A program made the position numbers and the translations under genes. Under the pieces are notes generated by a model. The model was not told the DNA's origin, made no database searches, and saw nothing but the letters and a program-made list of their open reading frames with translations. 64,000 bases of DNA from Naegleria gruberi (Eukaryota): assembly GCA_000004985.1 (NCBI GenBank), contig GG738891.1. One strand, 5' to 3'. Shown piece by piece: positions 4,410 to 64,000 of this stretch (its first letter is position 1; the number at the start of each line of letters is the position of its first letter).

Positions 4410-6578
4410 TTATTTCAAGAAGTTTTTATTGATTTCTGTAGCTATTTTAACCATTTCAATCTTTGAGTTATGTCTTCTATCGACAGGAAGTGATTTCTGT
4501 TGAACGAATCTAATAGCTATATTTGTAAATAATTTTGGAGCATTTGGAAGAACTTGTTTTCTCCAAAAATCTTCCATATCTGAAATGCTAATACTCTCAT
4601 TACCAAATGTCTCAAATACAATTGCAATTTCCTTAAATACCAATTCATTATATTTAGATGTGAAATTCTTTTCATTCATCTTAAGTTGTACGCTATCATT
4701 TCCACTGATTGGTGAATATCCTACACAAGCACATCTTCTAATATTTGAATACTTGTTGTAAAAGGCGTGTTCAATACAAGGTGGAGCTATCATGTGTTTT
4801 CTTTCATTTTCCAATGCAATATGGAACATGTGGCTCAATCTTCCACAATACCAAAGCATTTTGTTCTCGTCCATGTAGCCAATATCTCCTGTTTTGTGGT
4901 AAAGAATTCCATTTATCATCTCCTTACTTGTCTTCATTGCATTGTCGTCAAGCTCATATCTTGGACTAATGGCAGATCCACCAACCCAAATTTCACCAAT
5001 ATTGGATGTTGAAACATATTCTTGATTTCTAATCAAAATTGTAATGTTTGGACATTCCTTGCCAACACAATATCCCTTTGTAATACTGTATATTTCGCTA
5101 TCTGATGTGTAAATATTATCCAACTCATATGTATTAGTCAAACAAATGGGTAACCCCTCAGTAGCTCCATAAGTTGGGAAAATTGCTGGCTCACTTGATT
5201 CTTTTGAGGCCCATTTTCTTAATTTTTGATGAAGTGAATAAGGAGCTACAGAACCGCCACATAACAATACCTCCAGCGGTGGAGAGATAGTATTCTCTTC
5301 TTTGATTGACCCAGCAGCTTCATTCATTTTCTTGCAATAATCAATTACTTCCATCCATACAATAGGAGAGCAAAATCCCATTCTTGGATAAAATACATTC
5401 AAGGCGTTGATGTAGTGCTTGGAGTTAACACTAGCTGGGCTTGCCAAATTAAAAGGTGGAACAATTGCTGTCAATCCCATACAGTTTACACATAAAGTCA
5501 TTACTGTGTTGTGATTGATTACTCTGTCTTGTCTTCCTTTTATGAGATATGGCCTCATTAATTCGTTAAAGCTATATATTTGATTCTTTAACATTCCGTG
5601 AGTAATGTGAACAAGCTTTGGAATACCTGTAGTTCCAGTTGTATTGACAATAACTACAGTTTCGTCATCATCAAATTGGTAGAGATTTTCATCATTTTCC
5701 TCTGGTTCAATTTGTAGCTTTTCAACATTAACAATTTTTGTAATTTTCTTCCATTCTGGACGATTCTTGCTCAGTAAATTGAAAGCTCTATCAGAAGGTG
5801 TAAATAGCAAAACCTTTTTAGCAATATTGAGGAATTGTCTCTTTTTGAACAAGCTTGCGGCTTGAATCACTAAATAAATAAGTGGTGAAACAATTACAGC
5901 GTCAATATTCAATTTAGGAATCCACTCAAGGAAACTATCAATTCCACATTCATTAGGGTTCAATACAAGAATTTCTTGACCAGTTTGAATCAATGAAAAT
6001 ACCAATGGAACAAGTTGAATATCGTTTGGATCAACTAGAATAATGACTCTATTTTTGTTCTTATCCTTCAATTCATTTCCAATAACTCTATTATAAAATC
6101 TAATTGATTTTCTAACTTGATGAAAGGTCATTGAATTGTTTGTATCATTAATTTTGTAAAGATAATCAGCTGGATATAAATTGATTTTTCCAAGAGCAAA
6201 AAATATCAAAAAAGGTGTAAATAATAATGCCTTTTGATAACCTTCCAAATAATAAAACAGTAAAATGAAAATAGTCCACCCAGTCAAATAATAAATAAAT
6301 TTGTTAAATTTAACATTAGTTGGATAATGAAGAGCAGGTACTTCTGGATCTTTTTCCGCAACTTGTTCAAATAATTTTCCTAAAACATTATTAGGTTTGA
6401 TTTTTTGTTTAGATCGATCTCTTGGTGGAGGAAGAGGTGGTTGTTGAGCAATATTTTCTTGATCACTATCAATTGAAATTGTTGATTGTTCATAGCTTGC
6501 ATCTTCTTCATCGGAAAATTCAATTAAAGCTTCTTTTGTTTTACCAGAGGAAGCAATGCCTTCTCTTGAAATTGGCAT
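4410..6578 (-). CDS. AMP-dependent synthetase/ligase (long-chain acyl-CoA synthetase-like) with an acidic/Pro-rich, 2-TM N-terminal extension
   Basis: 722-aa single exon. AMP-binding P-loop motif NTTGTTGIPKLVHITHGML plus a downstream adenylate-forming core (YKTGDIGYMDENKMLWYCGR). The stop lies 4 bp from the Elongin C stop (convergent). Confidence 0.8.
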   Translation of the reverse strand: MPISREGIASSGKTKEALIEFSDEEDASYEQSTISIDSDQENIAQQPPLPPPRDRSKQKIKPNNVLGKLFEQVAEKDPEVPALHYPTNVKFNKFIYYLTGWTIFILLFYYLEGYQKALLFTPFLIFFALGKINLYPADYLYKINDTNNSMTFHQVRKSIRFYNRVIGNELKDKNKNRVIILVDPNDIQLVPLVFSLIQTGQEILVLNPNECGIDSFLEWIPKLNIDAVIVSPLIYLVIQAASLFKKRQFLNIAKKVLLFTPSDRAFNLLSKNRPEWKKITKIVNVEKLQIEPEENDENLYQFDDDETVVIVNTTGTTGIPKLVHITHGMLKNQIYSFNELMRPYLIKGRQDRVINHNTVMTLCVNCMGLTAIVPPFNLASPASVNSKHYINALNVFYPRMGFCSPIVWMEVIDYCKKMNEAAGSIKEENTISPPLEVLLCGGSVAPYSLHQKLRKWASKESSEPAIFPTYGATEGLPICLTNTYELDNIYTSDSEIYSITKGYCVGKECPNITILIRNQEYVSTSNIGEIWVGGSAISPRYELDDNAMKTSKEMINGILYHKTGDIGYMDENKMLWYCGRLSHMFHIALENERKHMIAPPCIEHAFYNKYSNIRRCACVGYSPISGNDSVQLKMNEKNFTSKYNELVFKEIAIVFETFGNESISISDMEDFWRKQVLPNAPKLFTNIAIRFVQQKSLPVDRRHNSKIEMVKIATEINKNFLK

Positions 6579-51183: not shown

Positions 51184-53163
51184 ATGCGTTTGTTCATACC
51201 AAATTCAACTCAAAACAAATTTCATAATACATCAACAACACTAACAATGAACAACCATGAAACTGTACTCTGTGAAGGAACTTTAGACATGTTTGATGCT
51301 CCATCTTTTACTAGCATCAATATTAGTAGTAATTCTTCATCTTCTCCGTCATCTAATTCTCCATCACTTGTTTTTCATCTTTCAACATCATCCGACTTTC
51401 AAACATCTGAACAAACCAAACAAAGTTCAAGTGGAAAAAGATCTAAATCAAAGGCAAAGAAGAGGAAAGTTATTTTGGATGAGGATGATGAACGTGATTA
51501 TGAGGAGTGTGATTTTATTTTGGAAATNNNNNNNNNNNNNNNNNNNNNNNNNNNNNNNNNNNNNNNNNNNNNNNNNNATGCTGATAGTCAGATTCCAACA
51601 ACCATTGTTCAGGCTATTTTGGATGTTGTAGCTGCTTCTATAAATCCACCACCTCAACAACCTCAACCAACACAAGAAGAACAAGCCTCCACAACTAATT
51701 CTAATGAACAAATTTCATCATCCGAAGGTATAGCTGAATCAATAACAACTAGTGATGATAATACACTTCAATCAGAACCAGCCATGCCAAAGCCTATTGA
51801 GGCTACTCAAACACCACCAACTGCAGCATCCACCATTGAAGCAAAACTTTCAAGCCAATCAACAAATAAGATTCTTGATGAACTTTATCGTGGATTGAAT
51901 ATATTCTATGATGAAGGTGCAAATGGACAATATGTACCTAGAACAATAATGGCAGATTTAGATCATTCATCACTTGATTCAATAATGTCTAATCAAGAAA
52001 TTGGTAAATGGTTTAGACCAGATTATTCATTAGGTAGTACAGGTAGTAGTGGTAATAATTGGGCTAAAGGTTATTATACAGAAGGACCTGAATTGGCAGA
52101 ATTAGTTATGGATGTTGTTAGAAAATCAGCAGAAAGTTGTGATTGTATTCAAGGATTTCAAATATTTCATTCAATTGGAGGTGGATGTGGTTCAGGAATG
52201 GGATGTTTCATAACAAATAGACTTCAAGATGAATATGGTGGTGCAATGATTATGACAAATTCTGTATTTCCATCTACAAAAACTGTTGATAGTGTTCTTG
52301 CACCTTATAACTCTGTTTTAACTTTACATCACTTGATTGAAAATGTTCAAATGGTTAATTGTTTTGATAATCATGCTCTTAATCAAATTAGTCAAAAATT
52401 ATTTAGAATTGAATCACCTGAAATGGTTGATTTGAATGAAATTGTTGCACAATCTGTTACAGGTATGTTGTTTTATAGAATGATTATGATGACATTTAAA
52501 TCATTATTAATATACTATTAAGGTATTACAAGTTCATTTAGATTTTCAGGTATTATAAATTCAGATTTACGTAAAATGGCAACCAATTTAGTTCCATTTC
52601 CAAGAGCTCACTTTTTCATGAATTCATTATCACCATTAGGAAGTTCATTTGATAATTCAGATCTTAAAGTTGAACAAATTACAAGTCAATTATTTAATCC
52701 AAATCATTTCCTAGTTGATGCCAATCCAAAGAATGGTAAATATTTAACAGCAAGTGTTATATTTAGAGGAGATGTTAGTTCATCATCAGCAGAAGAACAA
52801 GTTAATGGTATTCTTCAAAGAGATTCTTCTTACTTTTACAAATCAATTCCAAATAATTTACAAACTTCTATATGTAAAGTTGCACCACCTGGTATTAAGA
52901 GAACAGGAACTTTAATTGCTAATTCTACTTCTATTTTAACTATATTTAGACAATTATCATCTTCATTCTCAATGTTATTTAAGAGAAAGGCTTTTATGAA
53001 ATCATTTGAAATTGAAGGAATGGATGAATTGGAATTTTCAGAAGCAATTTCAAATCTTAATGATTTAATAGCTGAATATGAATTACAAGAATATGAACAA
53101 GATAATCATATTAATGTTGATGATGAAGAATTGGGAGGAGGAGAATCTGAACATGTTGAATAA
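51184..53163 (+). CDS. Divergent beta-tubulin-like protein with a Ser/Thr/Pro/Gln-rich N-terminal extension, interrupted by a scaffold gap
   Basis: Model join(51184..51527, gap, 51578..52462, 52523..53163); 60-nt intron gtatgt..ttaag in phase 1 gives ...SVTG|ITSSFRFSGIINSDLRKMATNLVPFPRAHFF, collinear with beta-tubulin [32 protein letters not shown]. The tubulin body is recognisable from about beta residue 45 (LNIFYDEGANGQYVPRTIMADLD...GSSGNNWAKGYYTEGPELAELVMDVVRKSAESCDCIQGFQIFHSIGGGCGSGMG ... RKAFMKSFEIEGMDELEFSEAISNLNDLIAEYELQEYEQD). The N-terminal GQCGNQ T1-loop region is absent. The GGGTGSG signature reads GGGCGSG. Confidence 0.7.
51528..51577. other. Assembly gap (50 N) inside the tubulin-like gene
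   Basis: Run of n characters. The true length is unknown, so the N-terminal exon structure cannot be fixed. Confidence 0.95.
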
Positions 53164-54748: not shown

Positions 54749-56859
54749 ATGCCACCATCAACATCCACCACTAATGGACCTATTGTAACCATATCATTCC
54801 AAGGAGGTGAATATACAGGTACAATTAATGAACAAAATGAACCTCATGGTAAAGGTACAATAATTTATCCCTACACTAAACATAAATATGAAGGTGAATT
54901 TATTAATGGTAAAGCTCATGGTAAAGGTATTGCAAGTGGTTTAATTACCAATGAAATGAGTTTTATTATTAATAATGAATTACGTGATATTGGTGATAAA
55001 TATGTTATTCCAATCAATTCTTATACTTCTACTACTACTAATAATACTGGTGATAATTCTAATACTACTAATAATACTCCATCCATCAAATAATCATAAT
55101 TAATAATTGGAGTTATGATGGACAATGGAATGAAGGAGTAATGAATGGTCAAGGTACATTTGTATTTTGTAATGGTGATATGTATAGTGGTGAATGGAAG
55201 GATGGAGTAGCTAATGGTAAAGGACTCTATACATGGAAAGTAACAGATGATAGATATATGGGTGAATTTTTAAATATGAAAAGACATGGTTCAGGTACAA
55301 TGTTATTTCAGAATGGACATAAATATGATGGTCTATTTTATAATGATTATAGATATGGTCATGGTGTTGAAACATTTGCCAATGGTAATAGATATGAAGG
55401 TTATTGGATTATGGATAAAAGACATGGTTATGGTTTAGCATATATTAAATTTGATAATTTAGATAAGAAATTACAAAAAAAGAGAAAACAATTAGTTAAA
55501 GGTCAATCTTTTAATGGTAGTAGTAATAGTTCTAATAATTCTAATTCTAATAATAGCAGTACAACTACTAATAATGGTAATACTATTAATAATTTATATA
55601 TTAATAATTTACATTCAATTGATAATTATGTAATATATTTACAAGAATATCAAATTGGTAAATTATTAAATGAAAAGGAATTATTTCCAACTGATTATAA
55701 TCAATATTTACCATCAAATCCAAATCAAGAACAACATTTAAAACCACCAAAAGAATTATTTAATGAAGAAATTAATGAAATTTTATTTAAAATTGATGAA
55801 GAAATTCAATTACTTGTTGAAGATTCAAATGGTCAATTAAAATTATCAAATCATCATCATGATAATCATTCTAATAATAATAATAATAATGATAATAATA
55901 ATACTAGTCCATCTATGGATGATATAAATGGTAATAATAATACAAATATAGAAGATGTATCACCACTTTCTAGAAATTCACATTTAAGTGAAATAGTTCA
56001 ACCAATTCTATGTACAGATAATGTTTTTGTTCAGGGAGTTGTTTGTTGGGAAGATAAATATTGGGATATGATTCAACAATTATTTGTTCAACAATATACA
56101 TTTAAATGTGAATTAAATCATTCTAAAAAATTATTACAACAATTAGATCAATTAACATATTTAGAACAACGTAGAATGGAAATTTTAGAAAAGATTGAAA
56201 TGTGTAATAATGCAAAAACTAAAACTAAATGGGAAATGAAACGTGTTATTGTTGAAGAATTAAATAGTGAAGCACCAAATGATTATAGTGGTGTTGATTT
56301 ATTCCAAGATAGATTAGATGAATTAATTTCTGAAATGAAATTAGAATTGACCGAAATTTTACAATTAAAAAATAATGCAAGTCAAGAAAGAGATGAAAAG
56401 AAAATTCAACAAACTTCACAACAAGTTTCAGATATTGAAAAAAAGATTTTCAGATTAGAATCAGCTTTACAAACTGCAAAGAATACTTCCATTCAAAATC
56501 CAAAATTGAAACAAGTTAGAGAACATGCTTTATATTCACAATTATTAGAAACTGTTGCAATTCATTTACAACGTTTAAGAGTTTTATTACGTCGTTTAAT
56601 GTCATTTAAATATGGTTTAGGTGCTGTTATTTTCACTCCAAATCAATTGGATATTGTTATTAATAATAATAATGGTGGTGCAAATGAAGAAGAATTGAAC
56701 AATACTAAGAATTTAATCATGTTAGTTCAAGGCTTGTTTGAATCTAATATTGTACGTTCAAGAGATCAAATTGCTCAACACTTAAAGATTGCTGGTATTG
56801 ATGCTGATAACATTTTGAAACGTACCAGATCTATCAGTGATGATTTACAAAAACAATAA
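54749..56859 (+). CDS. MORN-repeat protein with a long Asn-rich/coiled-coil C-terminal region; exon junction near 55060..55115 unresolved
   Basis: Segment 1 (54749..55093) carries MORN units YTGTINEQNEPHGKGTIIYPYTKHK / YEGEFINGKAHGKG. Segment 2 continues in another frame from the AG at 55113..55114 with YDGQWNEGVMNGQGTFVFCNGDM / YSGEWKDGVANGKGLYTW / YMGEFLNMKRHGSGTMLF / YDGLFYNDYRYGHGVETF / YEGYWIMDKRHGYGLAYI (track ORF 55141..56859). A phase-compatible GT donor for this acceptor was not found. Confidence 0.55.
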
Positions 56860-57075
56860 TTATTATTGATGAAGATTAATTATTCTTGTAATACTTACAT
56901 CATCATTATGATTAATAAACAATTTGTTTTTGTTTACTTCCGATGAGCCTTACAAGTCAAAATCACCCATCATAATTATTAAATTCAATAATTGATGATA
57001 TCTTCTTCATCTTCATCAAATAATAAATAAATATATAATAAATATATAATAAATAACAAAAATTTAAAACATGAT

Positions 57076-57546
57076 TTAATTCTTTCTCATTAATAAATAC
57101 AAATGTGTATCAGGTTCAATGTGTTGAATATCTCTAGCTTCACCTTTTAATTTCATTAATAAACCACCAAATGACACATAAATAGAAACGACAGAATAAT
57201 TCTTTTCAGGTTGATATTTATAAACTCTTCCGTACATGACATAATCATAATTGTCCATTAAAGATGGTTTGTCATCAGTTCCTAGGGTTGGATCATATGT
57301 ATCTTTAGTTTTCTTTGAATCTACTTGTTTTGATGGTTTAATTTCCAGGCTTGTTGCCAATGAAATTGTTAATTTATCATTAATTTCTACTGGGAATATA
57401 TCAGTGTTAATATCAATAATTAATTCCATTTCATCTTCACTTTCACAATAAAGACGTGATACTTTATCAAACTTCTTTCCTTCTGGATCAATGTTTTTGA
57501 CTTCAAAGAATTTATCTTCAAGAACAACAGGTCCCGATGATGACAT
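57076..57546 (-). CDS. rpb8: DNA-directed RNA polymerases I/II/III subunit RPB8 (RPABC3)
   Basis: 156 aa. VLEDKFFEVKNIDPEGKKFDKVSRLYCESE ... YDYVMYGRVYKYQP ... VSIYVSFGGLLMKLKG is collinear with Rpb8. Confidence 0.85.
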   Translation of the reverse strand: MSSSGPVVLEDKFFEVKNIDPEGKKFDKVSRLYCESEDEMELIIDINTDIFPVEINDKLTISLATSLEIKPSKQVDSKKTKDTYDPTLGTDDKPSLMDNYDYVMYGRVYKYQPEKNYSVVSIYVSFGGLLMKLKGEARDIQHIEPDTHLYLLMRKN

Positions 57547-58769
57547 TTTTTTTTAAATACAAATTTTATTATTTTTATTTTTATCGCAACGGAAGAAGTA
57601 AAAGCTTTGGAGAGGCTTGAAAGTTGGAATTTTTTTTTGAAGTTTTTTCATCATCTTCACCTCCAGAATTCGCTTTGATTATTAATACTGTAGTAAGTAG
57701 GAGCCAATTTCATTAATAACCACAGCTTTCAATACATTTGTTGTTCACAGTATGAAATAAAGTGCAATTATTAGTTAGAATTATAATGTCAACTCTCAAT
57801 CATTAATGAATTCATAACGAGCTCATTAACTTTGGATTCAATTCTTAAGAGAAACAAAACAGTCAAAATATTATATAAATAAATATTCAATATTGTAACA
57901 ATCTGTTTCTACAGTTTCTATTTGATTTTATACAACAACATCTTCTTAATGGAGCTTTCAATATAATATCATTTGAGGTATGTACTCAATTCGTGTTGTT
58001 GGTTGGTTGGCTACTGTTGATTGTTGTGTTGTTTGTGATATAATATCTGTGTGAATTGTTGACATAGTTTTTTGATCAATTTCACTAGTCCGCATTTGAG
58101 TTTGATCAGCTGGAATGTTGAGCATTGTGTGAAATTTTGTTGTGTTTTCCAACAACAACAAGGCTAGGCACTCTGTGTTATAGTGTTACTGCTGTAATAA
58201 TAATCCTCACAAATTTAATAAGGTAATCTAACTGATATCTGTTATTCTTCCAAATGAGAAAACGTTCACTCCTTAAATTCTTAAATATTCCATTCATTTT
58301 GATTAAAATTTCATTGTTTTTGAAAAGAATCAATAAACTCCTACACCACTAGAAAATTGTAATAGCCTCCAAACAAGTGCAAATGGCCTAAAAAGAACAA
58401 ACCATGGAAACGCGAGATTCGTTCCAACTGTTTTTCAATGTTCGTTTTTCGCGTTTTTACTATGGACCTTAATGGAAGCAACATTAAAGAAACTTCAACA
58501 ACAGCAACAAAGCGAAAGGGCGGTTAACTCAAAAAGGTCCGTCCAAGGTATTTCTGAAGCCTATTTCATGTCTGGCCACACTCTCCATTTGAAAATTACA
58601 AAAGCGAAAAAAACAATTTAACACAATTAAGCTAAATAGCTGCAGTCATTATTGTACAATTTATTAATATTATTAATCACATTCACTCTCAATAGACAGA
58701 AGATCACATCCAATAACACATATCATCCACAATAATACCAATAATAATACTACTACTTCCAAATATATA

Positions 58770-60470
58770 ATGAGTGATCCAGTATTATTATCATCCAATC
58801 ATCATCAACATCATCAAGATGATGATACTAGTGCGTCACATGAAATGGTTGAATTCACATTATCTCATCCAAACAGTTCAACTACATCACTTCCTAATCA
58901 TCAACATCATCGTGCCATGATGACATCACAATCATCATTCCAATCCACAAGTACCTCAAATCATGATGATTTAGAATTGGGTCATCGACCACAATTAAGA
59001 GTTGCAGAGAGTGAAATATTTGATCAACATTTATATCCACCCAATGATGATTCATCCTCTGCTGATCATTCACCTACTCCGACTACCTTAGTGGATGGTG
59101 ATGATCAACCTACAAGATTATTAAATGGTACATCTATTAATACTACTAATACTACTAATACTGCCACTGGTGGTGGTTGTGCTTCTACTACTATAAAGTC
59201 ATCAACAAATAATTATGGTAGTACTACTAATAGTACTTCTAATGTTATTAAGAATGTTAATAATACCAATACTACCAATGGTAACTCTACTACTCTTACT
59301 ACAAAGGGACGTTCATCATCCATTGCTAAACAACAACCAGCAACACCACTCACTAGAAAAGCAGCTATTAAACAATATTTCCAAAGAAAATATTTAAGTT
59401 TTGAACATCATTTAGTTTCACGTTCAGCTAAACATAGAGATTCTGAATATAGATCTCAATTAGAATTAATTACTGCCATTGATGAACATTGTGATAGTGT
59501 ACTACATACTTATAGTAGTTTTAGAATGTTTATATTATCATTGATGGGTGGTATTTATGTTTCTATTGCAACCTTATTGACAGGTTTAATTTCATCTGAT
59601 ATATCAAGTAAGGCTATGCAAAAATTCATGACTGGTATTGCATTTGTTGGTGGTTTTACAATGATTATATTTAGTAAGAGTATTCTATTTACAGAAGTTA
59701 ATATATCTGTTAGTGTTCATTTATTTAAAAATGATTTAATTGGTATTATTAGAAGAAGTGTCTATTGGGTTATTAAGGGAATATTCAGTTGTTTTAAAAA
59801 TCATTTACATATTAAAATTAGAAGACCACATAAGAGTATTAAATTAATTACACTTTTAAATTCTATTAAATTATGGAGTATTTCCATAGTTGGGAATATA
59901 TTAGGTACAGTGATGATGTCAGCAGTATTAGGAGCATGTTTCTCATGGTATGACAGTCAATCTATGGTACAATATTTGAGTGCATTAACTAAACACAAAT
60001 TAGATATTTTCATTGAAAGAGGTGCAAGTGGATGGTTTAGTTGTTTATTAAGTGGAATGGTTGCTAATTTCATGATTGGTGTTGCTTCTTTATTATGTAC
60101 TGCTGGTACTACTATTATTGGAAAGATTTTAGCTTTATTCTTCCCTATTATTGCTTTTGCTGTATGTTTTATTTATTATTAATATTAATTATTTATATAA
60201 TCTTTTTATGGTAATATTTCAATACTATTTATTTAGGCATTGGGTGTACAACATGCACCTGCTAATGTTGGATATTTCTCACATATTTTCATTTGGGATT
60301 CCATGTATGGTAATACTACTAATTTAACAATTACACCTGAAATTAATTATGTTATGAATTCAGTTGAATGGTATGATGGTTTAGCATGGAATTTAATTCC
60401 AGCTGCAATTGGTAATGCTTTGGGTGGTTTCTTCTTGGCATTTGTTTTTGTTTTTGTTTTTATTAAATAA
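58770..60470 (+). CDS. Formate/nitrite transporter family protein (FNT), copy 1, with a 270-aa low-complexity N-terminal extension
   Basis: join(58770..60161,60237..60470); 75-nt intron gtatgt..tttag in phase 0 joins track ORFs 58770..60182 and 60240..60470 (FFPIIAFA|ALGVQHAPANVGYFSHIF, corresponding to the FNT signature around the second half-helix). Six TM helices. The N-terminus is Ser/Thr/Asn/His-rich and contains the motif SEIFDQHLYPP. Confidence 0.75.
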
Positions 60471-60959
60471 TATTTAAATATAAAAGGAATTATTTAAAAA
60501 TAATACTCTCCTCTCATATATTATAAATGTTAAAAATAAAGTTTTATATTTTTAAAAATTACTTGATTAATTACAATCTTATCAAGAAAACATCAATACA
60601 TATAAGAGTTTTAAACATAAATATTTAAATGACCTTATTAGAAACCAATCTCATTCCATCAAATACTAAAATGATATTTACTCTAATCAAAATTATTAAT
60701 CAACAACTCAACACTATTCTCTCACTCAAGTAGTAAAATTCAATACCAAGTAGTAAATTACATCAATAACAACAGATAGATAATATCTAGGTTACAATAG
60801 CTTTCAATTAAACATCAATAAGTAGTGAAATGGATAATAATAAATGGATAATTAACCCAATTTGTAATTTAATGTTCCCAAAGGTCTGACTTTAAATTCT
60901 AAAGCGAAAAATAATCTGAAATAAAAAACAAAACAATAACATCAATATTGAATATCAAT

Positions 60960-62777
60960 ATGACAAGTGACAGTGGTGCATTGAGTACTTCATCTGTTTC
61001 TTCAACAATAGTTGATACAAATAATATTAATAATACAGTTAATACAAGACAACAACAATTAAATAATAATAATACTAATCCATATGGATCATCACAAAGA
61101 TTAGCACATTCACATCATCCACGTGTTCATCATCCTCATAATATTCATCATCATAATAATAATAATATACGTAAAGTTATGAGTCAATTAAGTATTAATA
61201 GTCAACAACAACAACAACAACAATATAATAGTAATGAACAATTATCATCTCTATATAGTATTGATAATAATAATATTATTAACATGTCTTCTAATAATAA
61301 TTTAAATAATTTGAATAATAATAATTTGAATAATAATAGAATTCATTCAGCACAATCATTTAGTTCACTTTCATCTTATTATAGAGATGATGAACATCCA
61401 CAACAACGTCATGTTCATTATTTTGATAGTGATGAATTTGATCAACATTTATATCCACCACCAATAATAATAATAATAATAATATACTTACTAAGAATGG
61501 TAAAAATAATGTTCATTTTGATACTAATGAAGATGATGAACAAGGACATTATCATGGTCATCATCATGAACATGAATTAGATGATAATCATCATCATCAT
61601 ATTATTGATCATCACCATGACCATCATCACCATCATCATCATGAAGATGATCATTGTGCTCATACTACTACCAATAATAATAATACTATTAAAAGTAGTA
61701 ATACTTGTTGTGGTGGTGAAGAAAATCCAATTATTGTTGGTAAATATCATCCAACAACAATGAACAAATCACCTCAATTAATTGAACATGAAGCGCAACT
61801 ACATGAACAACATGAACAATCCATCAATAATAGAAAAGAAAGAAATCCCTTAAACAATATTTCAACAAGAATATTAGGATTGAAGTGNNNNNNNNNNNNN
61901 NNNNNNNNNNNNNNNNNNNNNNNNNNNNNNNNNNNNNTTTGTATCAATTGGTACTTTATTATCTGCTCTAATTTCATCTGATATTACTACTAAATCATTA
62001 CAAAAATTTATGATTGGTATTGCATTTGTTGGTGCATTTACAATGATTATATTTAGTAAGAGTATTCTATTTACAGAAGTTAACATATCTGTTAGTGTAC
62101 ATTTATTTAAAAATGATTTAATTGGTATTTTTAGAAGAAGTATATATTGGTTATTTAATAATATATTTACTTGTTTTAAAAATCATTTACATATTAAAAT
62201 TAGAAGACCACATAAGAGTATTAAATTAATGACATTATTAAATTCTATTAAATTATGGAGTATAGCTATATTTGGTAATATATTAGGTACAATATTAATG
62301 TCAGCAATATTATCAGGTAGTTATGTATGGTATGATAATCAAAGTGTTATTCAATTTTTAAGTTCAACAACTAAACATAAAATTCATACATTTGAAGAGA
62401 GAGGTGTTAATGGATGGTTTAGTTGTTTATTAAGTGGAATGGTTGCTAATTTCATGATTGGTGTTGCTACTTTATTATGTTCTTCTGGTACTACTATTAT
62501 TGGTAAAATTATTGCTTTATTCTTTCCAATTATAGCATTTGCTGCATTAGGTGTACAACATGCACCTGCTAATGTTGGTTATTTTTCTCATATTTTCATT
62601 TGGGATTCTTTATATGGTTCAACTAGTAATATTACAATGACAAGTGAAATTAATTTTGTAATGAATGAAATTCAATGGTATGAATCTATTTATTGGAATT
62701 TAATTCCAGCTGCACTTGGTAATGCTTTGGGTGCTGTCTTTTTAGCTTTTATATTTGTTTTTATTTTTGTTAAATAA
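60960..62777 (+). CDS. Formate/nitrite transporter family protein (FNT), copy 2 (tandem paralogue): intronless, interrupted by a frameshift and a scaffold gap; possibly a pseudogene or an assembly error
   Basis: ATG at 60960 (track start 60948 is a TTG). Frame 0 up to about 61465, including the motif DEFDQHLYPP. The reading frame then shifts into a His-rich stretch (HYHGHHHEHELDDNHHHHIIDHHHDHHHHHHHEDDH) that runs to the N gap (61888..61937). After the gap the FNT body (62010..62777 in the track) is 80-90% identical to copy 1 and reads through FFPIIAFAALGVQHAPANVGYF without an intron. Confidence 0.55.
61540..61665 (+). repeat. CAT/CAC (His-codon) microsatellite-like tract
   Basis: catcatcatgaacatgaa...catcatcatcatattattgatcatcaccatgaccatcatcaccatcatcatcatgaagat, encoding a poly-His/Asp tract in FNT copy 2. 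Confidence 0.6.
61888..61937. other. Assembly gap (50 N) inside FNT copy 2
   Basis: Run of n characters. The frame changes across it, as expected for an arbitrary-length gap. Confidence 0.95.
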
Positions 62778-62799
62778 ATATTTTAATTATTAGGAATAT

Positions 62800-64000
62800 A
62801 TTATTTTTAATTTTTAAAGAAAAGAGAGCTATTCAACTTTGTCCATTAGTTTAATAATCAAGTTTACACATCAATGAAAAGCACAATATTAACTTGAATA
62901 GGAGTTCATTGAGTTATCTTTAAACATGGAATGCAAATGGATAGGAATCTAAGGATGATAATAATTTAATCATTTCTTCATTCTCAGTTGGAAGTGTAAC
63001 TTCGAGTGGTGATAAGAAATCATTCACATTCACTAACGTTGCTGGAAATGTTGGCACTCAAACATTTACCTATGTAAGCTAATGCCAATTATTACATTAT
63101 CTCACAAATTGATATCAGAATCAGTGGTTTCATTCTTGAACAGTAAAACAAGATCAATTTAGTTAATTTAGTTGATTCAAGGCCTGCAACATAATAGAGG
63201 ATCCAATGCTCTTATTCTTGAAACTGCATTCTTGTCAGCTTTAATACTAGAATCACACACGCGTTCCTGCAAGTTTGTTCGCTACTACAACACTGCAGTA
63301 AATATAGCAGTTTTACTTGGAAGAATATTAGACAACATAATGTAATAATAAGATAAGTATATAACAATAGCTAGTCTATGAACAACCGGGTATGAAGTAA
63401 TAAACTTATTAATAAAACATCTTACCATTAGAGTAATATGTGAAATACTATTCTAATTGGCAAACCGTAATAGTACACCAATATATATATGTTCTTTGCA
63501 AATCCAACATTGTGTGACAATCGTTTAGTATAACGAATAGCATTCCTTGTATTTGCTTATTAACGGTAGCTTAATGTAATTCGCATGGTGTTGTGGTTTG
63601 AGGAATGTTATTAATATGTATTATTGTTCTAAATCTTGAGCAGTTGATATGTATTGTTGTTAGATGAGTGTTGAACTATCCTTTTGACAGTATGCAAACG
63701 ATATCGGGTCTAAAGTTTTAGCCTAAGTTTATCTCTTGTCATTATTTACTTTTATTTGAGACAACAGGCTCCTATCTGGATGCTCCATGTTCCACTATGC
63801 GGCTTTAAACACTTGTCTAGAAATATGTGCGAGTGGTGGAAAGGCCAGATTAATCTCCATCTCTGTAAAATTATCATTTTTGATCACATGACCCTTTATT
63901 GTCTCAATTTTATTGAACCAATTTTTTAGATAATGAACCAAATCCTAAAATAATTCATCCATTGGAAATTCGCTCCATAAATTTTCTTGACAAAATTCAC
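62800..64000. other. Compositionally distinct terminal region with no long ORF (possible multi-exon gene fragment, degenerate mobile element or ncRNA locus)
   Basis: No ORF of 60 aa or more on either strand over 1.2 kb, in a window where genes otherwise occur every 1.6 kb. GC is higher and GC-rich codons (ggc, ctg, cgc, acg) appear in short open segments, e.g. 62988..63073 flanked by tctcag| and |gtaagc, and 63180..63350 (LIQGLQHNRGSNALILETAFLSALILESHTRSCKFVRYYNTAVNIAVLLGRILDNIM). Confidence 0.3.

What the first reader, a model, noticed from the sequence alone, without database searches (positions are those of the whole stretch)
58770..62777. Tandem FNT transporter paralogues: one with an intron, one intronless and frameshifted, sharing a conserved short motif in divergent N-terminal tails
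Two formate/nitrite-transporter genes lie head-to-tail. Their membrane domains are 80-90% identical at the DNA level (e.g. tttgttggtg(g/c)ttttacaatgattatatttagtaagagtattctatttacagaagttaa...). Copy 1 has a 75-nt phase-0 intron between FFPIIAFA and ALGVQHAPANVGYF; copy 2 reads straight through. This indicates intron loss or gain, or retro-duplication, after the duplication. Both carry long, mutually unrelated low-complexity N-terminal extensions, yet share the identical 23-nt block tttgatcaacatttatatccacc (FDQHLYPP). That looks like a conserved short linear motif, possibly for trafficking or regulation. Copy 2 then frameshifts inside a cca/aat microsatellite into a His-rich tract (possible metal-binding) and crosses an N gap.
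Basis: seen in the sequence. Interest (0 to 1): 0.6.

Follow-up and report, generated by a model that had tools for sequence, protein, structure and literature searches.

The report
Tandem Naegleria FNT genes, one intron
Two neighbouring copies of an anion-channel (FNT) gene in the amoeba Naegleria gruberi differ by one small intron that probably arose recently in the first copy. The "frameshifts" in the second copy are most likely sequencing errors beside an assembly gap, so this is an ordinary gene duplication with a modestly interesting intron history.

Summary
The window is Naegleria gruberi. In detail: two head-to-tail FNT genes (PF01226) lie here.

- **Membrane domains:** they align over 840 nt without indels, at 83.6% nt and 77% aa identity.
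- **Intron:** copy 1 (NAEGRDRAFT_71612) has a 75-nt GT-AG phase-0 intron at 60162-60236. Copy 2 lacks exactly those 75 nt.
- **Shared block:** a 24-nt exact block (FDQHLYPP) is shared by the two tails.
- **Age of the duplication:** it is specific to the N. gruberi lineage. dS between the copies is 0.40, against about 1.1 to the single-copy N. lovaniensis and N. fowleri orthologues.
- **Intron history:** no other homologue examined has an intron at copy 1's site; other lineages have introns elsewhere. This favours intron gain in the N. gruberi lineage.
- **Which copy is conservative:** copy 2 has 7 private amino-acid changes and copy 1 has 24.
- **Copy 2 frame breaks:** there are about five, not one. 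All are 1-nt homopolymer contractions, and four lie within 65 nt of the 50-N gap. They are probably contig-end errors, not decay.
- **Tails:** they are colinear homologues, not unrelated. The His/acidic tract recurs in orthologue tails. FDQHLYPP is only weakly conserved outside N. gruberi.

Retro-duplication is not supported. Interest is modest.

The parts
58770..60161 (+). FNT copy 1 (NAEGRDRAFT_71612 / XP_002673361), exon 1. It encodes a 262-codon low-complexity N-terminal tail, the pre-TM1 segment and most of the membrane domain.
   Evidence: It is 100% identical to P0001. The public model starts at Met26 (58845), but the ORF is open from 58770, and an independent gene call on L008 also starts there.
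59018..59041 (+). 24-nt block ATTTGATCAACATTTATATCCACC (FDQHLYPP), copy 1 instance.
60162..60236 (+). 75-nt spliceosomal-type intron private to copy 1 (GTATGT...TAG, phase 0, 11% GC). It contains a 13-nt tandem repeat at 60170-60198.
   Evidence: Copy 2 lacks exactly these 75 nt. Retention gives a stop after 7 codons. The public model P0001 splices it out. The 5' splice-site type matches the N. lovaniensis and N. fowleri introns. The tandem repeat comes from Tandem Repeats Finder.
60237..60470 (+). Copy 1 exon 2 (ALGVQHAPANVGYF...FIK, stop TAA). It holds the central His.
60471..60959 (.). 489-nt spacer between the copies. It shows no significant similarity to the region upstream of copy 1.
60960..61462 (+). 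Copy 2 N-terminal tail, frame 0 (MTSDSG...FDQHLYPP).
   Evidence: There are no stops for 206 codons in frame 0. The segment is colinear with the N. lovaniensis and N. fowleri A-type tails.
61436..61459 (+). 24-nt FDQHLYPP block, copy 2 instance.
61455..61484 (+). (CCA)3(AAT)7 microsatellite where the coding frame changes from 0 to +2. A one-base contraction (CCC->CC or AAA->AA) explains the change.
   Evidence: Copy 1 reads CCACCCAAT here.
61463..61840 (+). Copy 2 tail continued in frame +2: N-run, then the His/Asp/Glu-rich tract (21% His, 17% D+E; the (ATC)n array is at 61587-61642).
   Evidence: Frame +2 has 47 stops, all upstream of 61442; it is open for 148 codons from 61442 to the gap. 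His/acidic tracts are present in the tails of N. lovaniensis A, N. fowleri A, both Willaertia genes and P0003.
61822..61887 (+). Contig end with further frame breaks. LKQYF lies in frame +1. 'aagaatattaggattgaag' becomes K-K-Y-L-G-F-E (the family consensus) only after three 1-nt insertions in homopolymers.
   Evidence: (14-nt island 59368-59381 = 61850-61863). The final step is a manual alignment, so it is inference.
61888..61937 (.). 50-N assembly gap. By comparison with copy 1, about 147 nt (about 49 codons of the conserved pre-TM1 segment and the start of TM1) are missing.
   Evidence: A second 50-N run at 51528-51577 suggests a placeholder length.
61938..62777 (+). Copy 2 membrane domain (279 codons plus stop). 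It is intronless and open. The site equivalent to copy 1's intron is 62543|62544.

Best explanation
The locus holds a tandem duplication, specific to the Naegleria gruberi lineage, of a heterolobosean formate/nitrite-transporter (FNT) gene.

**What the proteins are.** Both copies encode FNT-type anion/weak-acid channels. Each consists of:
- a long, low-complexity N-terminal tail, presumed cytosolic and disordered;
- a conserved pre-TM1 segment (KYLxFE(Q/H)HL...);
- a membrane domain that keeps the family's catalytic Thr (LFT), Lys (TKHK) and central His (GVQHAPAN).

**How the copies differ.** The downstream copy 2 is the conservative copy and resembles the orthologues: it keeps the His/acidic tract and has few private substitutions. 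The upstream copy 1 has evolved about three times faster at the protein level and has replaced most of its tail.

**The intron.** Copy 1 carries a 75-nt spliceosomal intron at a position that is intron-free in every other homologue examined. The intron therefore arose in the N. gruberi lineage, most simply by gain in copy 1 after the duplication.

**The frame breaks.** The frame breaks in copy 2 are most likely base-calling or assembly errors (1-nt homopolymer contractions) in a thinly covered contig end that runs into a 50-N gap. That gap hides about 49 codons. In the organism copy 2 is probably an intact gene, and it has gone unannotated because of these errors.

**Status of each step.**
- Shown: family membership, the duplication, the private intron, the distribution of frame breaks, and the asymmetry of evolutionary rates.
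- Inferred: the direction of the intron change, the artefactual nature of the frame breaks, the substrate, and the role of the tails.
For: **Identity and family**
- P0001 is 100% identical to spliced copy 1 and is named N. gruberi NAEGRDRAFT_71612.
- Both copies hit PF01226, at 126 and 110 bits.
- The alignment to V. cholerae FocA (3KLY) and C. difficile HSC (3TDP) places LFT, HK and G-x-x-H-x-x-AN correctly.
- T283, K385 and H445 are invariant in the eight-sequence family alignment.

**A recent, lineage-specific duplication**
- dS between copy 1 and copy 2 is 0.40. dS to N. lovaniensis A and N. fowleri A is 1.05-1.21, and dS between those two species is 0.42.
- The orthologous loci in those species hold a single FNT gene.
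- The 24-nt and 14-nt exact tail islands are shared only by the two N. gruberi copies.

**Rate asymmetry**
- There are 24 private amino-acid changes in copy 1 and 7 in copy 2 at sites where N. lovaniensis and N. fowleri agree (binomial p = 0.003).
- Overall dN/dS is 0.35.

**The intron is private to copy 1**
- N. lovaniensis A and N. fowleri A share three introns (after GNVLGT, after SS(S/A)T, after PANLG). None is at the AFA|ALG site.
- N. lovaniensis B, N. fowleri B and the metagenomic ORF P0003 are continuous across the site.
- Willaertia B has three introns elsewhere.
- Copy 2 lacks exactly the 75 nt.

**The frame breaks look artefactual**
- The coding signal switches cleanly from frame 0 to frame +2, which stays open for 148 codons.
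- The two frames together reproduce the tail architecture that N. lovaniensis A has in a single ORF: the SSSFNSLSS island, then HVHY, then the His/acidic tract.
- All the breaks are 1-nt homopolymer contractions. About four of them lie within 65 nt of the N run.
- There are none in the 500-nt 5' tail or in the 840-nt membrane domain.
Against: - No reads, quality values or RNA data could be examined, so real frameshifts cannot be excluded. This applies especially to the first break, which lies 425 nt from the gap and inside a microsatellite.
- Protein NJ bootstraps do not recover (copy 1, copy 2): 27%, against 50% for (copy 2, N. lovaniensis A, N. fowleri A). This could reflect an older duplication homogenised by gene conversion rather than long-branch attraction of the fast copy 1.
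- Precise intron loss, which is RT-mediated and 3'-biased, is generally commoner than gain. Copy 1's intron lies near the 3' end.
- Both N. gruberi copies lack the three introns of N. lovaniensis and N. fowleri, so intron loss may have acted on this gene.
- Willaertia A, the best outgroup, could not be retrieved.
- No donor sequence or mechanism for a gain was found.
- Splicing of the intron rests on sequence signals and on the public gene model only.
Confidence: 0.55

Rival explanations
1. The intron predates the duplication. It was either gained earlier in the N. gruberi lineage or is older still. It was then deleted precisely from copy 2, for example by recombination with a reverse-transcribed spliced mRNA.
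For: - The deletion in copy 2 is exact to the base.
- The intron lies only 234 nt from the stop codon, which fits 3'-biased RT-mediated loss.
- Both N. gruberi copies lack the three 3'-half introns present in N. lovaniensis A and N. fowleri A. Intron loss may therefore have operated on this gene.
Against: - It needs at least two events where post-duplication gain needs one.
- Every other homologue is intron-free at this site.
- The exon sequence flanking the site in copy 2 shows ordinary synonymous divergence from copy 1. There is no recently converted patch there.
Confidence: 0.25
2. Copy 2 is truly frameshifted. It would then be either a young pseudogene, or a gene whose product starts at a downstream Met and lacks the long tail.
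For: - The assembly shows frame changes at 61455-61484 and near 61825-61887.
- No protein matching copy 2's tail or its simple ORFs exists in the large protein collection.
- Homopolymers and microsatellites are also hot spots for real indels.
Against: - Copy 2's membrane domain is open over 279 codons and has fewer private substitutions than copy 1 (7 against 24).
- Frame +2 is stop-free for 148 codons and encodes the His/acidic tract seen in the orthologue tails.
- The breaks are clustered against the N gap rather than spread along the 1.8-kb gene.
Confidence: 0.15
3. The duplication is ancient, predating the split from N. lovaniensis and N. fowleri, which later lost the copy 1 type. Gene conversion between the tandem copies keeps synonymous divergence low.
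For: - Protein NJ bootstraps favour (copy 2, N. lovaniensis A, N. fowleri A) at 50%, against 27% for (copy 1, copy 2).
- Eleven sites support that grouping and seven support (copy 1, copy 2).
- There are long exact runs of 47-60 nt between the copies.
- dS is heterogeneous along the gene, from 0.2 to 0.8.
Against: - dS is below 0.85 in every 40-codon window, against about 1.1 to the orthologues.
- The long exact runs coincide with invariant protein segments. Only 35 of 215 conserved codons carry a silent change, so such runs are roughly what that rate predicts.
- A fast-evolving copy 1 is expected to be pulled toward outgroups in a distance tree.
- The scenario needs an extra gene loss.
- The tails share islands that are absent from the orthologues.
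Confidence: 0.15
4. Copy 2 is a processed retrocopy of copy 1 (retro-duplication).
For: Copy 2 lacks the only intron of copy 1.
Against: - The arrangement is head-to-tail tandem, 489 nt apart.
- There is no poly(A) remnant after the stop codon.
- Copy 2's tail differs from copy 1's and resembles the orthologues' more closely.
- Copy 2 is the slower-evolving copy.
Confidence: 0.03

Closest known systems
Formate/nitrite transporter family (Pfam PF01226; bacterial FocA, NirC and HSC; solved structures 3KLY and 3TDP)
   Same: - The Pfam domain scores well above its threshold.
- The Thr of LFT, the Lys of 'HK' and the central His of G-x-x-H-x-x-AN align with FocA and HSC and are invariant in the clade.
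- The expected mode of action is therefore that of a pentameric anion/weak-acid channel (established knowledge about FNTs, not tested here).
   Different: - The clade is very divergent. It scores only E of about 0.008 against PDB sequences.
- It falls far below the NCBIfam FocA and fnt cut-offs (65-88 bits against 232-290).
- It has an insertion of about 38 residues, rich in basic residues, between TM2b and TM3.
- It has a conserved pre-TM1 segment of about 50 residues.
- It has low-complexity N-terminal tails of 200-300 residues.
- Its substrate is unknown.
N. lovaniensis C9374_010429 (P0002) and its N. fowleri counterpart (L005): the single-copy A-type orthologues
   Same: - Membrane-domain identity is 76% to copy 2 and 69-72% to copy 1.
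- The tail architecture is the same as copy 2's: the SSSFNSLSS island, HVHY, the His/acidic tract, and KYLSFE.
   Different: - They are single genes, not tandem pairs.
- They carry three introns at other positions and none at copy 1's site.
- They have no FDQHLYPP motif.
Eukaryotic FNTs such as the Plasmodium falciparum lactate/H+ transporter PfFNT
   Same: Both are FNT-family members of a protist. FNT genes occur as single or multiple copies in several protists (PMC5881087).
   Different: - No close sequence relationship was seen.
- The nearest relatives outside Naegleria and Willaertia are a Pharyngomonas transcript (41% identity) and unnamed metagenomic proteins.
- No functional data exist for any heterolobosean FNT in the library searched.
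Intron presence/absence differences between recent paralogues (recent spliceosomal intron gain or precise loss)
   Same: One copy has a short canonical GT-AG intron. The other copy is exactly colinear without it.
   Different: - No donor was identified.
- There is no target-site duplication beyond a 1-nt boundary ambiguity.
- There is no second copy of the intron in the 64-kb window, so nothing here marks it as an introner-type element.

Membership tests
FNT family (PF01226 / TC 1.A.16) | Profile HMM match above the curated threshold | tested here: met
   Copy 1 scores 126.4 bits and the copy 2 membrane domain 110.2 bits, against a 34.6-bit cut-off.
FNT family (PF01226 / TC 1.A.16) | Central pore His (FocA His209 position) in the motif G-x-x-H-x-x-A-N | tested here: met
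   GVQHAPAN aligns to GFEHCIAN of 3KLY and GFEHSVAN of 3TDP. H445 is invariant in the clade. The residue number in FocA comes from my own knowledge.
FNT family (PF01226 / TC 1.A.16) | Conserved Thr at the start of TM2b (L-F-T) and vestibule Lys | tested here: met
   ILFTE aligns to ELFT(S/G) and TKHK aligns to QHKL. T283 and K385 are invariant.
FNT family (PF01226 / TC 1.A.16) | Six-TM aquaporin-like fold forming pentamers | tested here: inconclusive
   AlphaFold2 on the eight-sequence alignment gave a mean pLDDT of 40.6 and pTM of 0.32. The model is all-helical but unusable.
FNT family (PF01226 / TC 1.A.16) | Transport of formate, nitrite, lactate or hydrosulfide | not testable with these tools
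   This needs heterologous expression and transport assays.
FocA equivalog (NCBIfam TIGR04060 / NF008069) | Score above the equivalog cut-off | tested here: not met
   The scores are 64.9 and 55.7 bits against 290, and 23.6 and 31.7 bits against 440. These are FNT members but not FocA orthologues.
U2-type spliceosomal intron | GT...AG boundaries with the genus-typical GTAWGT 5' splice site | tested here: met
   The boundaries are GTATGTTT...TTATTTAG. The N. lovaniensis and N. fowleri FNT introns start GTAAGT or GTATGT and end NAG.
U2-type spliceosomal intron | Removal restores an open frame colinear with intronless homologues; retention truncates the protein | tested here: met
   Copy 2 and all homologues read AFA-ALGVQH without interruption. 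Read-through gives a stop after 7 codons.
U2-type spliceosomal intron | Observed removal from mRNA | not testable with these tools
   No transcript data are available. Only the public gene model P0001 splices it.
Processed retrocopy | Poly(A) remnant, dispersed location and a parent-like full transcript sequence | tested here: not met
   Copy 2 is in tandem 489 nt downstream with no A-tract after the stop. Its tail differs from copy 1's and resembles the orthologues'.
Pseudogene (copy 2) | Relaxed constraint, with disabling mutations spread along the gene | tested here: not met
   Copy 2 has 7 private changes and copy 1 has 24. The 279 membrane-domain codons are intact. The frame breaks are confined to the 430 nt before the N gap, and about four lie within 65 nt of it.
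Short linear motif (FDQHLYPP) | Conserved island in a disordered, fast-evolving region, retained in orthologues | tested here: inconclusive
   The two paralogues are identical at 8/8 aa and 24/24 nt. The aligned orthologue segments are only QHHHW (N. lovaniensis) and NHHPY (N. fowleri). Disorder was not reliably assessed.
Introner-like element | Many near-identical intron copies in the genome | tested here: inconclusive
   There is no other copy in the 64-kb window or in the fetched loci.

The most novel reading that the evidence does not exclude
Copy 1's 75-nt intron may be a de novo spliceosomal intron gain that happened after a duplication only about dS 0.4 old. It would be one instance of continuing intron gain in Heterolobosea. 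In this single gene family, seven intron positions were found in three gene lineages: N. gruberi copy 1, the N. lovaniensis/N. fowleri A type, and Willaertia B. None is shared between lineages, and several family members are intronless. The intronless tandem paralogue preserves the empty insertion site, so the gain could be dissected at base resolution.
Probability: 0.45. Interest if true: 0.45.

Novelty: new member of a known kind. Interest (0 to 1): 0.3.

Why it matters
- **Annotation:** N. gruberi almost certainly has a second FNT gene, the conservative and orthologue-like one, that is missing from public protein sets because of a gap and contig-end errors. The annotated copy probably starts 25 codons further upstream than the public model.
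- **Intron evolution:** a pair of young tandem paralogues that differ by exactly one intron is a clean natural experiment on intron gain versus loss. The other Naegleria lineages have different private introns in the same gene, and the phylum has been little studied for intron dynamics.
- **Physiology:** heterolobosean FNTs, including two in the pathogen N. fowleri, form a small, divergent and uncharacterised clade. Only 8 representatives reach E<=1e-30 among 1.84 billion. The clade has unusual cytosolic additions. FNTs are absent from humans and are drug targets in Plasmodium (PMC5881087).

None of this overturns current understanding.

Tried and rejected
- **An intron to reconcile copy 2's frames.** The only GT...AG pairs between 61459 and 61580 give introns of 22-45 nt, and those are either multiples of three or too short. 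Rejected from reading the sequence.
- **Programmed frameshifting.** There is no canonical slippery heptamer, and the additional breaks near the gap make errors the simpler explanation.
- **Synteny between the window and the N. lovaniensis locus.** Only the FNT gene matches. The flanks of the two N. gruberi copies are not alignable with each other, apart from a marginal AAAGCGAAAAA element.
- **A donor or second copy of the intron.** Only AT-rich low-complexity matches were found.
- **Gene conversion as a necessary explanation of the 24-nt block and the long exact runs.** At the observed silent-change rate (35 of 215 conserved codons), such runs and an unchanged 8-codon island (p about 0.12) are not exceptional.
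- **Independent sequence for copy 2.** Exact look-ups of P0001, the exon 1 ORF and copy 2's ORF pieces found nothing. A protein search with copy 2's tail found nothing. A search with the membrane domain returned only 3 known hits, which shows that this tool is not exhaustive.
- **An ENA metagenome contig of a near-identical strain.** It was found through the neighbouring Rpb8 gene, but it stops at 59057.
- **Structure prediction.** pLDDT was 40.6, so no fold search was run.
- **Rfam scan of 57000-64000.** No hits.
- **Literature.** The held library contains no paper on Naegleria FNTs or on intron gain in this gene.

Full report
**Source and identity.** The spliced product of the upstream gene is 100% identical to the NCBI protein XP_002673361 / EFC40617 (NAEGRDRAFT_71612, UniProt D2VRK0), annotated 'predicted protein [Naegleria gruberi]'. 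The window is therefore N. gruberi nuclear DNA. Composition is about 30% G+C.

**Checking the observation.**

- **Copy 1.** The ORF opens at ATG 58770. Exon 1 runs to 60161 and the intron is 60162-60236. The intron is 75 nt, GTATGTTT...TTATTTAG, phase 0 and 11% G+C; if it is retained, a stop follows after 7 codons. Exon 2 is 60237-60470.
- **Copy 2.** It opens at ATG 60960. There is a run of 50 N at 61888-61937, and the membrane domain runs from 61938 to 62777.
- **The intron difference.** A MAFFT alignment shows that copy 2 lacks exactly the 75 intron bases and nothing else. The equivalent junction in copy 2 is 62543|62544.
- **Membrane-domain identity.** Over 840 nt the copies align without a single indel, at 83.6% nucleotide and 77.1% amino-acid identity.
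- **Family.** Both copies match Pfam PF01226 far above threshold.
- **The shared tail block.** It is 24 nt, ATTTGATCAACATTTATATCCACC, at 59018-59041 and 61436-61459. It occurs nowhere else in the window, even with 3 mismatches allowed. It exceeds every one of 100 shuffles and the longest common substring in 200 codon shuffles, which was at most 15 nt.
- **The frame change.** The switch at (CCA)3(AAT)7 into a His-rich tract is present in the assembly.

Two corrections follow in later sections: there are more frame breaks than one, and the tails are not unrelated.

**What the proteins are.**

- Against PDB sequences the best matches are V. cholerae FocA (3KLY) and the C. difficile hydrosulfide channel (3TDP). 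Scores are weak (E about 0.008), but the hallmark positions line up: ILFT-E with ELFT-S/G, TKHK with QHKL, and GVQHAPAN with GFEH(C/S)xAN.
- These Thr, Lys and His residues are invariant in the eight-sequence family alignment.
- NCBIfam's FocA and fnt models are matched only far below their cut-offs. These proteins are therefore FNT-family members but not orthologues of any characterised bacterial subfamily.
- An exhaustive HMMER scan of 1.84 billion representatives found only 348 proteins at E<=1e-3 and 8 at E<=1e-30.
- The close set consists of Naegleria, Willaertia and two metagenomic sequences. The next hit is a Pharyngomonas kirbyi transcript at 41% identity. This is a small, divergent clade spread across Heterolobosea.
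- Compared with FocA, the Naegleria and Willaertia proteins have three additions. One is a basic insertion of about 38 residues between TM2b and TM3. Another is a conserved pre-TM1 segment, (K/R)YLxFE(Q/H)HL(L)RRS..RSQLELITAIDEHCD. The third is a low-complexity N-terminal tail of 170-310 residues.
- An AlphaFold2 run on the shallow alignment failed (pLDDT 40.6), so the fold was not verified structurally.
- The held library contains no paper that treats Naegleria FNTs.

**Age and polarity of the duplication.**

- The orthologous A-type genes of N. lovaniensis (P0002, locus L001) and N. fowleri (locus L005) are single genes, flanked by an RCC1-like gene and a PRK-domain gene.
- Synonymous divergence between the two N. 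gruberi copies is 0.40. It is 1.05-1.21 to either orthologue and 0.42 between N. lovaniensis and N. fowleri. The duplication, or the last homogenisation, is thus about as old as the split of those two species and much younger than the split of N. gruberi from them.
- Protein distance trees do not resolve this. Bootstrap support is 27% for (copy 1, copy 2) and 50% for (copy 2, N. lovaniensis A, N. fowleri A). This is the expected behaviour when one copy evolves fast.
- At sites where the two orthologues agree, copy 1 has 24 private changes and copy 2 has 7 (p = 0.003).
- I therefore read copy 2 as the conservative descendant that resembles the parent gene, and copy 1 as the derived one.
- An ancient duplication masked by gene conversion remains a minority alternative. 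dS varies from 0.2 to 0.8 along the gene, but it never approaches the interspecific value.
- The long exact runs (47-60 nt) sit in invariant protein segments. Only 35 of 215 conserved codons carry a silent change, so runs of this length there are not exceptional.

**The intron.**

- I reconstructed the exon structure of every retrievable homologue.
- N. lovaniensis A and N. fowleri A share three introns. One follows GNVLGT (phase 1), one follows SS(S/A)T (phase 2) and one follows PANLG (phase 1). Their lengths are 238/133/93 nt and 136/58/117 nt. None lies at AFA|ALG, although the third is only 8 codons downstream.
- N. lovaniensis B is intronless.
- N. fowleri B and the metagenomic P0003 ORF are continuous across the site.
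- Willaertia B has three introns at yet other places.
- Copy 1's intron is therefore private. On parsimony it arose in the N. gruberi lineage. One event (gain in copy 1 after the duplication) beats two events (earlier gain, then precise loss from copy 2).
- The caveats are real. Precise, 3'-biased, RT-mediated loss is a well-known process, and the intron sits 234 nt from the stop.
- Both N. gruberi copies lack the three N. lovaniensis/N. fowleri introns. The intron-free outgroups suggest those were gains in the other lineage, but they could instead be losses here.
- Willaertia A could not be fetched.
- No donor was found. The intron is AT-rich, contains a 13-nt tandem repeat and has no other copy in the window or in the fetched loci.
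- Its splice signals match those of the congeneric introns, and the public model removes it. I had no transcript evidence.

**The 'frameshift'.**

- Stop-codon counts show a clean switch. Frame 0 has no stop for 206 codons from 60960. Frame +2 has 47 stops, all upstream of 61442; from there it is open for 148 codons up to the gap.
- The switch point is CCACCACC|AATAAT, where copy 1 reads CCACCCAAT. A single missing base in a C or A run explains it.
- The frame +2 segment encodes an N-run and a tract with 21% His and 17% Asp+Glu.
- Comparable His/acidic tracts precede the pre-TM1 segment in N. lovaniensis A (HEDHHHYEDDHHHHDD), N. fowleri A, both Willaertia genes and P0003.
- In N. lovaniensis A, the homologues of copy 2's frame 0 part (the SSSFNSLSS island and HVHY) and of its frame +2 part lie in a single ORF.
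- A second shift is needed about 40-60 nt before the gap. The 14-nt island TTAAACAATATTTC, shared with copy 1, encodes LKQYF only in frame +1.
- The last 20 nt, aagaatattaggattgaag, become K-K-Y-L-G-F-E only if one base is restored in each of three homopolymers. That sequence matches the family consensus, and Willaertia has RYLGFE. This step is a manual alignment, an inference on top.
- In total, about five 1-nt contractions lie in the 430 nt upstream of the N run, four of them within about 65 nt. There are none in the 500 nt before that or in the 840 nt after the gap.
- Together with copy 2's conservative evolution, this is the signature of a poorly covered contig end, not of a decaying gene.
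- By comparison with copy 1, the 50-N placeholder hides about 147 nt (49 codons). A second gap in the window is also exactly 50 N.
- From my own knowledge, the N. gruberi NEG-M assembly is a roughly 8x Sanger draft (Fritz-Laylin et al. 2010), where such ends are common.
- I could not inspect reads, so a real frameshift keeps about 15% probability.
- Copy 2 appears to be unannotated. Neither its simple ORFs nor its tail match any protein in the collections searched.

**The tails and FDQHLYPP.**

- The two tails are colinear homologues that have been reshaped by microsatellite turnover. The shared islands, in order, are MSD..LS; S(Q/A)(S/Q)SF(Q/S)S(T/L)S, which is also present in N. lovaniensis and N. 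fowleri; (E/D)S(E/D)xFDQHLYPP; and (I/L)KQYF..KYLxFE.
- FDQHLYPP is identical at all 24 nucleotides. Given 77% third-position identity between the copies, eight unchanged codons have p of about 0.12. That is compatible with simple purifying selection on a short island.
- In N. lovaniensis and N. fowleri the aligned residues are only QHHHW and NHHPY. If the motif is functional, it is young or fast-evolving.
- F-D-Q-H-L-Y resembles the family-wide pre-TM1 motif F-E-Q-H-L-L. An internal echo of that segment is possible, but I did not test it.

**Rejected readings.**

- Retro-duplication does not fit. Copy 2 is in tandem 489 nt downstream, has no A-tract after the stop, has a tail like the orthologues' and evolves more slowly.
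- No plausible intron or slippery site can reconcile copy 2's frames.

**An independent data lead.** The neighbouring Rpb8 gene (57076-57546, minus strand) occurs exactly on a 2,024-nt contig of ENA metagenome assembly ERZ929261 (run ERR1078381). That contig equals window 57047-59057. The coding parts are identical, including copy 1's first 96 codons and the FDQHLYPP block. The intergenic DNA differs at 42 alignment columns. Reads of that run could settle the copy 2 region.

**Verdict.** This is a correct and careful observation of an ordinary phenomenon, a young tandem duplicate pair of a known transporter family in a published genome. It has three useful by-products:

- a probably intact but unannotated second gene;
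- a clean candidate for recent intron gain, or less likely precise loss;
- a description of an uncharacterised heterolobosean FNT clade.

Interest is modest, at 0.3.

Noticed in passing
L003 about 6120-6140 (N. fowleri GCA_008403515.1) and L004 (Logan SRR29240419): The N. fowleri B-type FNT gene changes reading frame near its 3' end (..ILVWRS | AFVTQNATLVTQEMKYVM.. continues in another frame). The public protein FDP41_004907 (P0007) therefore has an aberrant C-terminus that lacks the last transmembrane helix. The same product is called in two assemblies, so this may be a real frameshift or an unrecognised feature.
   Followed up: partly
window 58770-58844: The public model of copy 1 starts at Met26 (MVEFTL, 58845). 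The ORF is open from ATG 58770, and MSDPVLLS aligns with copy 2's MTSDSGALS. An independent gene call on the ENA contig L008 also starts at 58770. The true start is probably 25 codons upstream of the public model.
   Followed up: partly
L008 (= window 57047-59057), ENA ERZ929261 / ERR1078381 / PRJEB11402: A metagenome assembly contains a near-identical N. gruberi strain. The Rpb8 CDS and the first 288 nt of copy 1 are 100% identical. The 1.1-kb intergenic stretch differs at 42 alignment columns, many of them small indels.
   Followed up: partly
window 57600-58769 and 62778-64000: The FNT pair is flanked by ORF-free stretches of about 1.1-1.2 kb that are less AT-rich than the coding sequence. 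This is unusual for this gene-dense window. There are no Rfam matches. The upstream stretch varies between strains, as expected for unconstrained DNA.
   Followed up: partly
window 58593-58611 and 60894-60911: A short shared element, AAATT(A)C(A/T)AAAGCGAAAAA, lies upstream of both FNT start codons, about 160 nt and about 50 nt away respectively. It is the only similarity between the two 5' flanks. The E-value is marginal (0.057).
   Followed up: no
window 51528-51577: There is a second run of exactly 50 N, inside or next to ORF 51184-52521. This suggests that 50 N is a placeholder for gaps of unknown size in this assembly.
   Followed up: no
L007 5001-6746 (Willaertia magna B-type FNT) and window 60162-60236: All three Willaertia B introns keep the frame, because their lengths are multiples of three and the whole gene reads in one frame apart from intron stops. 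Copy 1's intron is also 3n (75 nt). Two of the six N. lovaniensis/N. fowleri introns are 3n.
   Followed up: no
window 59021-59038 / 61439-61456 compared with the pre-TM1 motif (copy 1 59397-59414): F-D-Q-H-L-Y in the tails resembles the family-wide pre-TM1 motif F-E-(Q/H)-H-L-(L/V), which is found in all nine homologues. It may be an internal echo of that segment.
   Followed up: no
window 57076-57546 (-) and 55141-56859 (+): The neighbouring genes are an Rpb8 RNA-polymerase subunit (PF03870) and a 572-aa ORF that looks like a MORN-repeat protein (untested). The RCC1-like and PRK-domain genes that flank the orthologue in N. lovaniensis and N. fowleri are not found in this window. Local synteny is therefore not conserved.
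   Followed up: partly
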